This document shows positions 3,523 through 5,705 of a stretch of DNA of 64,000 bases, piece after piece. A model generated the notes under the pieces. It did not search any database, was not told the DNA's origin, and saw only the letters and a list, made by a program, of their open reading frames with translations. The DNA lies in assembly GCF_003334785.1 (NCBI RefSeq), contig NZ_QOWV01000012.1; one strand, written 5' to 3'. Each line of letters starts with the position of its first letter. The stretch's first letter is position 1. Both the position numbers and the translations under genes were made by a program. This DNA is from Escherichia coli (GTDB lineage: Bacteria > Pseudomonadota > Gammaproteobacteria > Enterobacterales > Enterobacteriaceae).

Positions 3523-3780
3523 TTAACGCGGAGAAACCCCGTAATGTGCAATGCAGCGCCAGACACCATCCTGCTGGCAATAAATTGACTCAGTCTGCCC
3601 AGGGATCACCCATTGTATTTCCTCGCCGGGGGGACAGGTCAGCCAAATGCATAACCCGCAGCCGCCGCGTAAATCACGGGGAATATCGCTGACGCGAAAA
3701 GTCATGCCCGCTGCCTGCAACGCCTTGCGGGTTTGTATGACGCCGACCGTGGAGTGAAATAAAAATAAAAACTCTTTCAT
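3523..3780 (-). CDS. Small 85-aa protein, DUF3343-like (putative Se/S-carrier-like), translationally coupled to yjiL
   Basis: ORF with ATG overlapping the yjiL TGA stop (ATGA junction at 3777-3780); sequence [22 protein letters not shown]...[12 protein letters not shown] resembles the DUF3343 pattern (hydrophobic start, conserved PR-x-S-x-CG). Family assignment is from memory, not a search. Confidence 0.5.
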
Positions 3781-4550
3781 CGGCGTGTCCTCACTCGTTG
3801 ACCAATTACCGCCGCGCCAATTGCGCCAGCAAATTGCGCATCAGGATGGGTATTTACCGGCATTCCCAGGTGAGATTCCAGCATCCGGGCAAACGTCTGG
3901 CAATGACTAACGCCACCAGTAAACAGAATCGGCGCTTCACAGGAGAGACGAGCAATGAAATTGGCACTCCTCCGCGCCATCGCGTTAATCACTCCGGCGA
4001 GAATCGCTTCTGGCGCGACGCCCGCTGAGCGCAGGCTGATCACTTCTGATTCAGCAAACACTGTGCACATACTCGTGATGGCGTGCGGCGTGACATTTTC
4101 GGTAATGCTGTCGAGTTGCTCGACGCTGGTGCCAAGCGTGCGCGAGATCACCTCCAGGAAACGCCCGGTGCCCGCCGCGCATTTGTCATTCATCAGGAAA
4201 TCGCACAGGTTACCGTCATCATCAAGCTGAATCACTTTGCTGTCCTGACCACCGATGTCGATTACCGCGCGCGTTGCTGGCGCAAGAAACCGTGCGCCCA
4301 GCCCGTGACAGGAGATTTCCGTCACTTGTTTATCGGCAAAATCCACCAGTTGCCGTCCGTAGCCGGTGAGCGTCAGAAACGGCGTTGTCTCTAACCCTTC
4401 GCGCAGAGTTTCCCAGGCTTCAGTAATTGCTGTTGCCGGGCGAAAGGGGGTTGGAACGAGGAAACGGCGCGTAATCACGCCGTCTGCCAGTAAGATCCCT
4501 TTGGTGGCGGTAGAACCAGAATCAATGCCAATCGAATATGTCACTGCCAC
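3777..4550 (-). CDS. yjiL: BadF/BadG/BcrA/BcrD-type ATPase, 2-hydroxyglutaryl-CoA dehydratase activator-like (HgdC-like)
   Basis: 257-aa ORF; N-terminal IGIDSGSTATKG acetate/sugar-kinase-fold ATPase motif and conserved Cys typical of Fe-S activator ATPases. Confidence 0.85.
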   Translation of the reverse strand: MAVTYSIGIDSGSTATKGILLADGVITRRFLVPTPFRPATAITEAWETLREGLETTPFLTLTGYGRQLVDFADKQVTEISCHGLGARFLAPATRAVIDIGGQDSKVIQLDDDGNLCDFLMNDKCAAGTGRFLEVISRTLGTSVEQLDSITENVTPHAITSMCTVFAESEVISLRSAGVAPEAILAGVINAMARRSANFIARLSCEAPILFTGGVSHCQTFARMLESHLGMPVNTHPDAQFAGAIGAAVIGQRVRTRR

Positions 4551-4553
4551 TCC

Positions 4554-5705
4554 TTACAGCATCTCAATAAAGGCCGCGACACGGGTACTGAGCTGCCCGA
4601 AATCCGAGGTGGAGTAGTCTGTTTCAATAGCGATATAAGGAATGTTGTGCTGCTGGCGCACATGACGTTTAATCGCCAGCGATTCCACCGCGTAGGTATG
4701 GCACGCCTGCAAAATCACATCAACTACGCCATCGACCTGATATTCTTCCACCATCTGGCTGAGCATTTTCAGGCGCTGATCGTTCGGCGAAACACAGGAG
4801 CAGCCAATCGCCAGATATTTATCCGCCAGCGCGTCGTAGACATCGCCCGTTTCTGCCACGCATTGCTCGGTCGCTTTCGCCCCGGTGCAGTTTTCATAAC
4901 CGACCACCCAGCCGCCATTCTCTTCAATCGCGCGCACCACTTTCTCTGCTGCGCCGCCAATCGGGCAGCCGGTGATTAAAAGGCGTGGACGCGGGTCCAG
5001 TCGCTGGCCTTCTTCCCACTGCTGACGAATGCGGGCGGTCATCGCGTCCAGTTCATTGATCAACGCCTCTTTATCGAACCGAAAGGTTGCGCCGTAAACC
5101 ACTTTCAGAATGTCGCTGCCGCTAAGCGCCGGAGGATTTAACTGCCCAAGATGATAAAAATTGGCCAGTGCGCGACGTTCGCGGTTTTTCAGCGCAATAG
5201 CATCGCGCAGAGCATCTTCGCTAATCTCGTGCCCAAAACGTTCTTCTACCGTTTTTTGCAAGCGCAGCATCTCAGCTTTCCATAATGCACGCGAGGCATC
5301 GTCCTTAACGCTGTTCGGCAACTGCATCACATGAACAGGCTTAAACTCCGCCATGTATTCATACATTTTCTTTTTGCCGTCGCAGGTGGTTTCACCGACC
5401 ACCAGATCCGAAAAGTAGAAGTAGGGGCATTTATCGGTTTTGCCGAAGCCGTAGCTACTTTTAATCAGTGGGCAGAGGTTGCGCGGCAGATCTTTCTCCG
5501 CTTCTTCAATGGTTTCATCAGAGGTGGAACAGAGCGAAACCACAACCGCACCGGCTGCCATCGGGATCTCTTGCGGCATAAAGGTGCAGTAGGTGCCAAC
5601 CAGCGGAATGCCGCGCTCCTTGAGATCCATGACGGTGAGAAAGCCTTTCTGGCGAGCTTCAGAGAACTGATCGAAAATGGCGGGTAGATCGGTGACAAGT
5701 GACAT
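4554..5705 (-). CDS. yjiM: 2-hydroxyglutaryl-CoA dehydratase D-component-like protein (HgdB-like)
   Basis: ORF 4554-5726; ATG at 5705 gives 383 aa starting MSLVTDLPAIFDQFSEARQ; Cys-rich, 3 bp from yjiL start (operon). Confidence 0.8.
   Translation of the reverse strand: MSLVTDLPAIFDQFSEARQKGFLTVMDLKERGIPLVGTYCTFMPQEIPMAAGAVVVSLCSTSDETIEEAEKDLPRNLCPLIKSSYGFGKTDKCPYFYFSDLVVGETTCDGKKKMYEYMAEFKPVHVMQLPNSVKDDASRALWKAEMLRLQKTVEERFGHEISEDALRDAIALKNRERRALANFYHLGQLNPPALSGSDILKVVYGATFRFDKEALINELDAMTARIRQQWEEGQRLDPRPRLLITGCPIGGAAEKVVRAIEENGGWVVGYENCTGAKATEQCVAETGDVYDALADKYLAIGCSCVSPNDQRLKMLSQMVEEYQVDGVVDVILQACHTYAVESLAIKRHVRQQHNIPYIAIETDYSTSDFGQLSTRVAAFIEML

What the first reader, a model, noticed from the sequence alone, without database searches (positions are those of the whole stretch)
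3523..5705. Orphan activator-ATPase / dehydratase-subunit-like operon with a coupled DUF3343-like small gene
yjiM (HgdB-like, 383 aa), yjiL (HgdC/BcrA-type activating ATPase) and an 85-aa ORF whose ATG overlaps the yjiL stop form a tightly packed operon with no HgdA-like catalytic partner in the window. The small ORF carries a conserved GGCGLC Cys pair like proteins proposed to carry sulfur or selenium. The substrate and function of this three-gene set are unknown, and the small gene is easy to miss in annotation.
Basis: partly seen in the sequence, partly recalled or inferred. Interest (0 to 1): 0.4.

Follow-up and report, generated by a model that had tools for sequence, protein, structure and literature searches.

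The report
E. coli yjiM-yjiL-ytiA reductase operon
This is the already-annotated E. coli yjiM-yjiL-ytiA operon: an oxygen-sensitive, ATP-driven iron-sulfur reductase, its electron-donating ATPase and a small cysteine protein that probably passes a sulfur or selenium atom, with no substrate yet known.

Summary
Three co-directional minus-strand genes sit at 3523-5705: yjiM (383 aa), yjiL (255 aa) and an 85-aa gene whose ATG overlaps the yjiL stop (ATGA). The small protein matches Pfam PF11823 (DUF3343 / Se_S_carrier) at E=4e-13.

YjiM is not an orphan dehydratase subunit. It passes NCBI's equivalog model for double-cubane [8Fe-9S] reductases and keeps all seven motif cysteines. Its closest solved relative is the homodimeric Carboxydothermus enzyme (E=1e-74), so no HgdA partner is expected. 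The small gene is not overlooked: it is ytiA (b4715) in K-12 and is annotated across RefSeq E. coli. The cassette is in 5374 of 5426 complete genomes.

New here: the three-gene unit keeps its spacing in other genera despite different flanks. Of 80 distant double-cubane loci, 17 carry a DUF3343 gene, 12 of them inside the operon. Overall 27 carry DUF3343, YedF or a selenocysteine-lyase-like desulfurase. This extends a published bioinformatic link between these enzymes and selenium.

Most likely, YtiA is a single-cysteine sulfur/selenium relay serving the reductase. Whether it supplies the cofactor or the substrate is unresolved. The genes are already known. Interest is modest.

The parts
4554..5705 (-). 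yjiM: class II double-cubane [8Fe-9S] cluster protein (DCCP), 383 aa. It is the predicted catalytic, electron-accepting component.
   Evidence: NF040772 equivalog 529 bits against a cutoff of 350. PF06050 E=1e-121. PDB 6ENO E=1e-74. Cys 40, 59, 78, 108, 273, 302/304 and 335 align with all motif Cys of DCCP-Ch. 56-58% identical to the 383-aa DCCPs of Lachnospiraceae, against a median of 39% to class I.
3777..4544 (-). yjiL: DCCP reductase, an ASKHA-type ATPase ('archerase') of 255 aa with a GTG start. It is predicted to be a homodimer bridged by a [4Fe-4S] cluster.
   Evidence: TIGR00241 364 bits against a cutoff of 125. PF01869 E=1e-76. PDB 1HUX 9e-53, 4EHT 2e-52, DCCP-R 7YYL_E 5e-47. C122 and C160 align with C127 and C166 of HgdC in the alignment; that these are the cluster ligands in 1HUX is from my own knowledge.
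3523..3780 (-). ytiA (b4715): 85-aa DUF3343 / Se_S_carrier protein, translationally coupled to yjiL.
   Evidence: PF11823 E=4e-13. Annotated as ytiA in K-12 and RefSeq. dN/dS 0.17-0.24. AF2 model pLDDT 92 with a ferredoxin/PII-like fold.
3777..3780 (-). ATGA overlap of the yjiL stop codon and the ytiA start codon (translational coupling).
   Evidence: Read directly from the sequence. The same 4-nt overlap occurs in Klebsiella, Atlantibacter and the unidentified locus L010.
3658..3660 (-). Codon for YtiA Cys41, the only invariant cysteine of the family and the predicted persulfide/perselenide-carrying residue.
   Evidence: Invariant, together with P34, in the 29-sequence alignment A3. Lin et al. 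2015 also report a single highly conserved Cys in DUF3343.
5706..5820 (-). yjiN-yjiM intergenic region holding the yjiM ribosome-binding site and presumably the operon promoter.
   Evidence: Sequence. yjiML is listed as an FNR ChIP-bound, anaerobically up-regulated operon with 'TSS not in peak region' (PMC3688515). No consensus promoter or FNR site was found here.

Best explanation
The locus encodes a two-component, ATP-driven low-potential reductase plus a dedicated sulfur/selenium relay protein.

YjiL is predicted to be a homodimer bridged by a [4Fe-4S] cluster. It would hydrolyse ATP to push an electron onto the [8Fe-9S] double-cubane cluster of homodimeric YjiM, where an as yet unknown substrate is reduced. 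YjiM is the short class II form. It lacks the roughly 36-residue N-terminal extension that closes the channel in the Carboxydothermus enzyme, so its substrate may be larger than acetylene or hydrazine.

YtiA is made in step with YjiL through the ATGA overlap. It is a small ferredoxin-like protein with one invariant cysteine (C41). By analogy with its family's gene neighbours (YedF, selenocysteine-lyase-like cysteine desulfurases, rhodanese), it probably carries a sulfur or selenium atom as a persulfide or perselenide and hands it to, or takes it from, the YjiM/YjiL system.

The operon is switched on without oxygen by FNR.

Shown here:
- Family memberships and cysteine conservation.
- Operon architecture and its conservation.
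- Enrichment of S/Se-relay genes around DCCP genes.

Inferred:
- Cluster type, ATP-driven electron transfer and homodimer state, from the characterised homolog.
- The relay chemistry of YtiA and its direction.

The confidence given is for the whole statement. The DCCP/DCCP-R assignment alone I put at about 0.9, and the relay role of YtiA at about 0.5.
For: DCCP identity:
- NF040772 529 bits against a cutoff of 350.
- 6ENO E=1e-74, against 1e-19 for BzdN and 2e-13 for HadC.
- All seven motif Cys conserved.
- Named class II DCCP in PMC7317905.

Reductase identity. The mechanism of the homologous pair is in PMC9351452.

No second HGD-D gene in the window.

YtiA:
- PF11823 match.
- Invariant C41.
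- Purifying selection.
- The cassette keeps identical spacing and the 4-nt overlap in Klebsiella, in Atlantibacter with unrelated flanks, and in L010 at 81/65/39% identity for the three proteins.

Distant DCCP loci:
- 17 of 80 have a DUF3343 gene, 12 of them inside the operon. All 29 aligned sequences, 17 of them from these loci, were confirmed by Pfam.
- All 6 loci with a YjiM-like 383-aa DCCP have one.
- YedF in 16 of 80 and SclA-like desulfurase in 9 of 80. Any relay gene in 27 of 80, and 20 of 80 within 300 bp.
- The nearest YtiA relatives outside the cassette overlap a YedF gene or a desulfurase gene.

FNR regulation.

Genome-level DCCP-SelD co-occurrence is 955 of 970 (Haft preprint).
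Against: - No biochemical datum exists for YjiM, YjiL or YtiA themselves. The cluster type and activity are extrapolated from a 39%-identical enzyme.
- 63 of the 80 DCCP loci have no DUF3343 gene within about 7 kb, so the small protein is accessory, not obligatory. This count is a lower bound, because my HMM may miss divergent members and many contigs are short.
- DCCP-Ch assembled its cluster when over-produced in E. coli without a co-expressed DUF3343 of its own. The host's own ytiA could confound this.
- The E. coli cassette has no adjacent YedF or desulfurase gene.
- S/Se carriage by any DUF3343 protein has never been demonstrated. It is a comparative-genomics proposal.
Confidence: 0.55

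Rival explanations
1. Cofactor-maturation variant. YtiA delivers the extra chalcogen atom needed to build the double-cubane cluster. This would be the mu2-sulfide that bridges the two cubanes, or a selenium atom in its place, giving an [8Fe-8S-Se] cofactor.
For: The cluster needs a ninth, bridging sulfide not supplied by cysteine ligands. DUF3343 genes sit between the DCCP and activase genes in 12 distant operons and next to cysteine desulfurase family genes. 955 of 970 DCCPs are in SelD-positive genomes, and a selenium-bridged cluster was raised as a formal possibility by Haft.
Against: Most DCCP loci lack a DUF3343 gene. The crystallised DCCP-Ch made in E. coli carried an all-sulfur cluster. 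General ISC/SUF machinery normally suffices for Fe-S assembly.
Confidence: 0.25
2. Substrate-delivery variant. The physiological substrate of the reductase is a chalcogen species presented on the carrier, such as a perselenide, polysulfide, Se(0) or an organoselenium compound. YjiM/YjiL would reduce it with ATP-energised electrons to selenide or sulfide, for example to feed SelD during anaerobic selenoprotein synthesis.
For: DCCP genes cluster with YedF, SclA-like lyases, DUF3343 and rhodanese. In Slackia they cluster with selD and selAB (STRING table). The DCCP-SelD co-occurrence is near-exclusive. FNR induction coincides with the anaerobic need for selenoprotein formate dehydrogenases (the physiology is my own knowledge). 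The Se(0)/HSe- couple is very negative, about -0.7 V (from memory, not checked here), which would justify an ATP-coupled reductase.
Against: Thiol-bound perselenides are reduced readily by glutathione or thioredoxin without ATP (own knowledge). No selenium phenotype has been reported for yjiML. YjiM's predicted open channel was interpreted by the structural authors as fitting a CoA ester or another large substrate.
Confidence: 0.2
3. YtiA is a small structural, redox or regulatory subunit unrelated to sulfur/selenium transfer. Examples are a PII-like modulator of the YjiL-YjiM complex, a thiol redox switch, or a docking adaptor for the physiological electron donor (ferredoxin or flavodoxin).
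For: The predicted fold resembles PII, CutA and ACT-type small regulators as closely as anything else. The protein evolves much faster than its partners, at 39% identity against 81% for YjiM in L010, as adaptor subunits often do. S/Se carriage by the family has never been shown.
Against: The only invariant residues are one Cys and one Pro in a P-x-P-R...C-G loop, which is typical of a reactive-cysteine carrier. The family's recurrent neighbours are sulfur/selenium-mobilising enzymes, not regulators.
Confidence: 0.12
4. YjiM is the beta-type subunit of a 2-hydroxyacyl-CoA dehydratase or benzoyl-CoA-reductase-like enzyme, and its catalytic alpha partner is missing or encoded elsewhere.
For: It shares the Pfam family HGD-D. 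The older K-12 annotation reads 'putative dehydratase subunit'. There are weak hits to HadC, BzdN and BcrC.
Against: Scores to HadC, BzdN and BcrC are far below their cutoffs (94/700, 78/454, 58/421), whereas the DCCP model is passed by a wide margin. The seven-Cys signature that separates DCCPs from three-Cys dehydratase subunits is complete. No second HGD-D gene is in the window. The same single-DCCP cassette moves as a unit between genomes.
Confidence: 0.03

Closest known systems
DCCP / DCCP-R of Carboxydothermus hydrogenoformans (CHY_0487 / CHY_0488; PDB 6ENO, 7YYL)
   Same: YjiM is 39% identical over 355 aligned residues, with every motif cysteine conserved. YjiL matches DCCP-R at E=5e-47. 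Both are adjacent, co-directional two-gene modules. The expected mechanism is the same: ATP-driven electron transfer from a dimer-bridging [4Fe-4S] cluster to two [8Fe-9S] clusters.
   Different: YjiM is the short class II form and lacks about 36 N-terminal residues that close the substrate channel. The gene order is DCCP-reductase-DUF3343, with a translationally coupled third gene. Nothing has been measured for the E. coli proteins.
2-hydroxyacyl-CoA dehydratases with their activators (HgdAB/HgdC, HadBC/HadI)
   Same: The same protein superfamilies: HGD-D for the acceptor and the ASKHA 'archerase' for the ATPase. YjiL is most similar in sequence to HgdC and HadI (9e-53 and 2e-52).
   Different: The dehydratases are alpha/beta heterodimers with one three-Cys [4Fe-4S] cluster per subunit. 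YjiM has the seven-Cys signature, no paralogous partner, and scores far below the HadB and HadC cutoffs.
Class I benzoyl-CoA reductases (BcrABCD, BzdNOPQ, MbdNOPQ)
   Same: ATP-coupled low-potential reduction using homologous modules. A recent paper's title reports an [8Fe-9S] cluster in these enzymes too (PMC11971306, listed; not read).
   Different: They are four-subunit enzymes. YjiM matches BzdN and MbdN only at about 1e-19 and lies below all BCR model cutoffs.
DUF3343 / PF11823 'putative Se/S carrier' proteins next to YedF and selenocysteine lyase (Lin et al. 2015)
   Same: YtiA matches the family HMM and has the single conserved Cys. Its nearest relatives outside the cassette overlap YedF and desulfurase genes.
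   Different: In E. coli the gene is coupled to a DCCP reductase, not to YedF or a lyase. E. coli yedEF lie elsewhere on the chromosome (own knowledge). The YtiA-like subfamily is narrow: 43 representatives at E<=1e-3 among 1.84 billion.
TusA / DsrE / rhodanese sulfur-relay proteins
   Same: Works like: a small protein with one reactive cysteine that accepts a persulfide from a desulfurase and passes it on. Members of these families co-occur with DUF3343 in the DCCP operons.
   Different: There is no sequence or specific fold relationship. Membership is not claimed.

Membership tests
Double-cubane cluster protein (DCCP; NCBIfam NF040772) | Whole-protein score above the curated equivalog cutoff | tested here: met
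   529.2 bits against a cutoff of 350, covering residues 14-383 and the full model.
Double-cubane cluster protein (DCCP; NCBIfam NF040772) | Seven conserved cysteines: six cluster ligands plus the Cys94-equivalent | tested here: met
   YjiM C40, C59, C78, C108, C273, C302/C304 and C335 align with the 6ENO-chain cysteines 76, 95, 114, 144, 309, 341/343 and 374. The published spacing written as a literal regex does not match, because YjiM's linkers are 2-3 residues shorter. The family's authors state that YjiM shares the motif.
Double-cubane cluster protein (DCCP; NCBIfam NF040772) | Adjacent cognate ASKHA-type ATPase reductase | tested here: met
   yjiL starts 9 nt downstream. TIGR00241 364 bits; matches DCCP-R 7YYL_E at 5e-47.
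Double-cubane cluster protein (DCCP; NCBIfam NF040772) | Homodimer with no paralogous HGD-D partner subunit | tested here: inconclusive
   No second HGD-D gene in the 64-kb window, and a single HGD-D gene in the cassette in three other genomes. The oligomeric state itself cannot be determined from sequence.
Double-cubane cluster protein (DCCP; NCBIfam NF040772) | Contains an [8Fe-9S] cluster and performs ATP-dependent reduction | not testable with these tools
   Requires anaerobic purification, metal and sulfide analysis, spectroscopy or a structure, and activity assays.
2-hydroxyacyl-CoA dehydratase (HgdAB / HadBC) | Alpha/beta heterodimer encoded by two adjacent HGD-D paralogs | tested here: not met
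   Only one HGD-D gene is present.
2-hydroxyacyl-CoA dehydratase (HgdAB / HadBC) | Score above the subunit model cutoffs | tested here: not met
   HadC 93.9 bits against a cutoff of 700. HadB 18.6 bits against 750.
Acyl-CoA dehydratase activase / archerase (TIGR00241, PF01869) | Full-length HMM match above the cutoff | tested here: met
   364.3 bits against a cutoff of 125.4. PF01869 E=1.3e-76 over the whole model.
Acyl-CoA dehydratase activase / archerase (TIGR00241, PF01869) | Two cysteines per monomer that ligate the dimer-bridging [4Fe-4S] cluster | tested here: met
   YjiL C122 and C160 align with HgdC C127 and C166 in the alignment. That those are the ligands in 1HUX is from my own knowledge, not from a tool.
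DUF3343 / Se_S_carrier (PF11823) | Pfam HMM match | tested here: met
   E=4e-13, 49.1 bits, residues 4-59. All 29 aligned relatives also match.
DUF3343 / Se_S_carrier (PF11823) | Single highly conserved cysteine | tested here: met
C41 is invariant in alignment A3.
DUF3343 / Se_S_carrier (PF11823) | Actually binds and transfers sulfur or selenium | not testable with these tools
   Never shown for any member. Needs persulfide/perselenide mass spectrometry or 35S/75Se transfer assays.

The most novel reading that the evidence does not exclude
DUF3343 proteins such as YtiA, together with YedF and SclA-like lyases, are the missing link between double-cubane reductases and selenium. Either they insert a selenium atom as the bridge of an [8Fe-8S-Se] cofactor, or the double-cubane enzyme is an ATP-driven reductase that turns carrier-bound or elemental selenium into selenide for SelD. 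On this reading E. coli's FNR-induced yjiM-yjiL-ytiA cassette is the minimal, genetically tractable version of that system.
Probability: 0.2. Interest if true: 0.75.

Novelty: already known. Interest (0 to 1): 0.3.

Why it matters
The physiological substrate of double-cubane cluster enzymes is not known. They are nitrogenase-like, ATP-driven reductases. Haft found them in about 5% of representative genomes, almost always in genomes that can use selenium.

E. coli carries a minimal three-gene version in 99% of complete genomes, and it is induced anaerobically by FNR. The third gene, a putative sulfur/selenium carrier, recurs inside these operons in unrelated phyla. That gives a concrete hypothesis to test in the easiest organism available.

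As a discovery the locus itself is ordinary. All three genes are annotated, and the family assignment of YjiM and YjiL is published.

Tried and rejected
1. The published 7-Cys motif written as a literal regex did not match YjiM. Alignment to 6ENO showed that all the cysteines are present with slightly shorter linkers, so the regex failure was discarded as evidence.
2. The word-indexed homolog searches returned only close Enterobacteriaceae relatives for both YtiA and YjiM and were useless for distant context. I used the exhaustive representative search and a pattern scan of one genome per species instead.
3. The PDB sequence search with YtiA gave no significant hit (best E=0.031, a ferredoxin-type CxxC match).
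4. Fold searches of a confident YtiA model gave only generic ferredoxin/PII-like matches. No mechanistic inference was drawn from them.
5. The promoter and terminator scan and an FNR-consensus search found no convincing site in the yjiN-yjiM intergenic region. The only nearby FNR-like matches, with 2 mismatches each, are at 5906-5919 inside yjiN and at 3469-3482 downstream of ytiA. The window-wide count of such matches (45) is above the shuffle mean of 32.7 but within the shuffle range (largest 46).
6. Literature searches for expression or function of E. coli ytiA/b4715 found nothing. The hits were B. subtilis ytiA (rpmE2) or unrelated.
7. P0253 and P0254 looked like long YtiA homologs but are frameshifted translations and were excluded.
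8. A metagenome scan for class II DCCP loci was considered and not run. Ranking by similarity would have returned mostly E. coli or Lachnospiraceae copies of architectures already seen.
9. A linker-fused AlphaFold run to test a YtiA-YjiM contact was considered and not run, because the tool returns no inter-chain error estimates.
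Full report
**What is in the sequence.** The window is Escherichia coli chromosome, covering the kptA-yjiJ-yjiK-ytiA-yjiL-yjiM-yjiN-mdtM region. It is 100% identical over the 2.4 kb queried to several RefSeq genomes.

- yjiM, 4554..5705, 383 aa.
- yjiL, 3777..4544, 255 aa, from the GTG that lies five bases after an AAGGAG.
- An 85-aa ORF, 3523..3780.

The gap between yjiM and yjiL is 9 nt. The yjiL stop and the small ORF's start overlap as ATGA, with a GAGGA eight bases upstream. A profile search of every ORF of at least 80 codons in the 64-kb window found no second HGD-D-family, activase or DUF3343 gene.

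**What the three proteins are.**

YjiM:
- It matches Pfam HGD-D.
- It passes NCBI's equivalog model NF040772, 'double-cubane-cluster-containing anaerobic reductase', at 529 bits against a cutoff of 350. It falls far short of the dehydratase and benzoyl-CoA reductase subunit models.
- Its best solved relative is the Carboxydothermus double-cubane cluster protein 6ENO/7YYL at E=1e-74. BzdN and MbdN reach about 1e-19, and the dehydratase beta subunit 2e-13.
- A literal regex for the published seven-Cys motif failed. Pairwise alignment shows why. Every motif cysteine is present (YjiM 40, 59, 78, 108, 273, 302/304, 335), but two linkers are 2-3 residues shorter.
- The structural authors had already named YjiM a class II DCCP. 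They described it as lacking the channel-closing N-terminal helices, with YjiL as its ATP-dependent partner (PMC7317905).

YjiL:
- It is a full-length activase/archerase.
- It matches HgdC, HadI, MbdQ and DCCP-R at E=1e-53 to 1e-47, with both cluster-binding cysteine positions aligned.

The small protein:
- It matches PF11823, formerly DUF3343 and now 'Se_S_carrier', at E=4e-13.

**Is any of this unannotated or new?** No.
- MG1655 lists the small gene as ytiA, b4715.
- PGAP annotates it as 'DUF3343 domain-containing protein' or 'putative Se/S carrier protein', and yjiM as the double-cubane reductase, in every E. coli record listed.
- The cassette is present at 80% coverage or better in 5374 of 5426 complete genomes.

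The 'missing HgdA partner' is not a puzzle. The characterised DCCP is a homodimer that is itself the catalytic acceptor.

**Is ytiA a real gene?** Yes.
- Orthologs at 54-91% identity and 78-91 aa occur in Escherichia, Citrobacter, Klebsiella, Raoultella, Kosakonia, Atlantibacter and Phytobacter.
- dN/dS is 0.17 within E. coli. It is 0.17-0.24 against Klebsiella and Atlantibacter, although dS is near saturation in those comparisons. The values are about 0.06 for yjiM and 0.06-0.22 for yjiL.
- AlphaFold2 gives a confident compact model (pLDDT 92) with a beta-alpha-beta-beta-alpha-beta-beta topology.

**Conservation of the unit.**
- In Klebsiella pneumoniae and Atlantibacter hermannii the three genes keep the same lengths, the 9-nt gap and the 4-nt overlap. 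The flanking genes differ completely in Atlantibacter.
- An unidentified metagenomic contig (L010) has the same cassette, with YjiM 81%, YjiL 65% and YtiA only 39% identical.

The three genes therefore behave as one module, and the small protein evolves fastest.

**The small protein's family context.**
- The exhaustive search found only 43 representatives at E<=1e-3, so the YtiA-like subfamily is narrow.
- The nearest members outside the cassette overlap a YedF gene (TIGR03527, 211 bits) or the 3' end of a cysteine desulfurase / selenocysteine-lyase family gene. This is the context in which Lin et al. proposed DUF3343 as a sulfur/selenium chaperone.
- Across 29 sequences, all confirmed by Pfam, only P34 and C41 are invariant, within a P-x-P-R...C-G loop.

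**Do double-cubane operons elsewhere carry this gene?** I scanned one genome per species with a DCCP alignment headed by the Carboxydothermus sequence. The 80 best loci came from Bacillota, Desulfobacterota, Actinomycetota, Bathyarchaeota and other lineages. I searched them with locally built HMMs.

- 59 loci have an activase gene in the locus, in most cases immediately downstream of the DCCP gene.
- 17 have a DUF3343 gene.
- 12 of those have it inside or abutting the operon, typically in the order DCCP-DUF3343-activase.
- Six Bacillota loci add a second DCCP of 380-396 aa (ORF calls; one is over-called at 419). It is 51-58% identical to YjiM, whereas YjiM's median identity to class I is 39%. 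All six have the DUF3343 gene.
- YedF occurs in 16 of 80 loci. Seven of eight tested pass the TIGR03527 cutoff.
- TIGR01977/SclA-like desulfurases occur in 9 of 80, enriched in the DUF3343-positive loci (7 of 17 against 2 of 63).
- Altogether 27 of 80 loci have at least one such relay gene, and 20 of 80 have one within 300 bp of the core genes. These are almost always co-directional.
- L085 reads DUF3343-desulfurase-YedF-DCCP-DUF3343-activase-DCCP on one strand.
- L058 and L063 read desulfurase-DCCP-DUF3343-activase-YjiM-like DCCP-rhodanese.

A random 15-kb window in a 3-Mb genome should hold a single-copy gene about 0.5% of the time. That figure is my estimate, not a computed control.

**How this sits with the literature.**
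- Haft reported that 955 of 970 NF040772 proteins lie in SelD-positive genomes. He raised a selenium-bridged cofactor as a formal possibility.
- Lin's STRING table already shows an activase and HgdB-like genes among the top partners of DUF3343 and YedF in Slackia.
- A later preprint labels DCCP and DCCPR as putative selenium-metabolism genes.

My neighbourhood counts extend an existing bioinformatic link and do not create one. The specific point I did not find stated is that DUF3343 is the component embedded in the DCCP operon itself, and that E. coli carries the minimal form.

**Regulation.** yjiML is listed among operons with an FNR ChIP peak and higher anaerobic expression (PMC3688515). It rises with oxygen depletion in O157:H7. 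It is counted in the FNR regulon in a metal-stress study. I found no convincing FNR or sigma-70 consensus in the 115-bp yjiN-yjiM spacer.

**Mechanism.** The best-supported account has these steps:
1. YjiL hydrolyses ATP and transfers an electron from its dimer-bridging [4Fe-4S] cluster to the double-cubane cluster of YjiM. This is by homology.
2. YjiM reduces an unknown substrate. It may be larger than the small molecules turned over by the class I enzyme.
3. YtiA, made in step with YjiL, uses C41 to carry a sulfur or selenium atom to or from the system.

I cannot decide between three readings of YtiA:
- It supplies the cofactor's bridging atom.
- It presents the substrate, for example a perselenide or Se(0) reduced to selenide for SelD.
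- It is a non-relay adaptor.

The first two fit the gene neighbourhoods. The third fits the generic fold and the fast evolution. No biochemical data exist for any of the three E. coli proteins.

**Verdict.** The DUF3343 prediction is confirmed. The 'orphan dehydratase subunit' and 'easily missed gene' readings are superseded by current annotation and literature. The locus is already known. Its value is as a tractable entry point to the open question of what double-cubane reductases do, now with a specific partner protein to test.

Noticed in passing
window 2598-3569 (minus strand): The longest ORF for yjiK (323 aa) runs back over the 3' end of ytiA. RefSeq starts yjiK at 3458 (286 aa; GTG, 'VTKSISLSK'), leaving a 64-nt spacer after ytiA with no terminator-like hairpin. 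yjiK could therefore be partly read through from the yjiM-yjiL-ytiA transcript.
   Followed up: partly
window 3469-3482 and 5906-5919: Two FNR/CRP-like palindromes with 2 mismatches each (TTAAGGCAAATCAA between ytiA and yjiK; TTGACACGGATAAA inside the 3' end of yjiN, about 200 bp upstream of the yjiM ATG). Either could relate to the published FNR ChIP peak for yjiML. The window-wide count of such matches (45) is above the shuffle mean (32.7) but within the shuffle range.
   Followed up: partly
window 8841-9785 (plus strand): An intact 314-aa Rpn-family recombination-promoting nuclease gene sits where K-12 MG1655 has the rpnD pseudogene. The window therefore comes from a non-K-12 strain.
   Followed up: no
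L005 / L006 (Atlantibacter hermannii), positions 1-2661: Here the yjiM-yjiL-ytiA cassette sits next to TIR-domain, TPR and DUF4231 genes, which look like a defence island, and next to gor/rsmJ/prlC on the other side. This placement is completely different from E. coli and suggests the cassette moved as a unit.
   Followed up: no
L058, L063, L070, L085, L088 DUF3343 genes (for example L058:8085-8342): The Lachnospiraceae and related operon-embedded DUF3343 proteins have a CCG motif (two adjacent cysteines) in place of GCG at the invariant site. They also end in a conserved C-terminal R-[DN]-[RKV]-[YF]-C, which gives a possible second reactive cysteine that YtiA lacks.
   Followed up: no
L058:12802-14827 and L063:12798-14828: Downstream of the DCCP/DUF3343 operon and a rhodanese-like lipoprotein lie three further genes: a CCG-type dicluster protein (a partial match to 'diclust_near_Sec'), a DedA-family membrane protein, and an AhpD-like protein matching TIGR04169, 'arsenosugar biosynthesis-associated peroxidase-like'. 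This is a further hint of chalcogen or metalloid chemistry.
   Followed up: partly
L014:1202-1540, L016:5788-6126, L021:6373-6714: In Peptococcaceae, Acididesulfobacillus and Desulfosporosinus loci, a roughly 112-aa protein sits just upstream of the DCCP gene. It corresponds only to the C-terminal (DsrE-like) half of YedF and scores 105.6 bits, just under the TIGR03527 cutoff of 110.
   Followed up: partly
L007 (GCA_030844865.1), whole locus; proteins P0253, P0254: Every gene across this Klebsiella-like locus is split into fragments, which is typical of an error-rich assembly and not of pseudogenisation. Two database 'homologs' of YtiA, P0253 and P0254, are frameshifted translations.
   Followed up: no
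PMC3688515, Table of FNR regulon: The ChIP peak coordinate printed for yjiML (3,463,910) does not fit the operon's position at about 4.565 Mb in MG1655. It looks like a typographical error in the paper's table.
   Followed up: no
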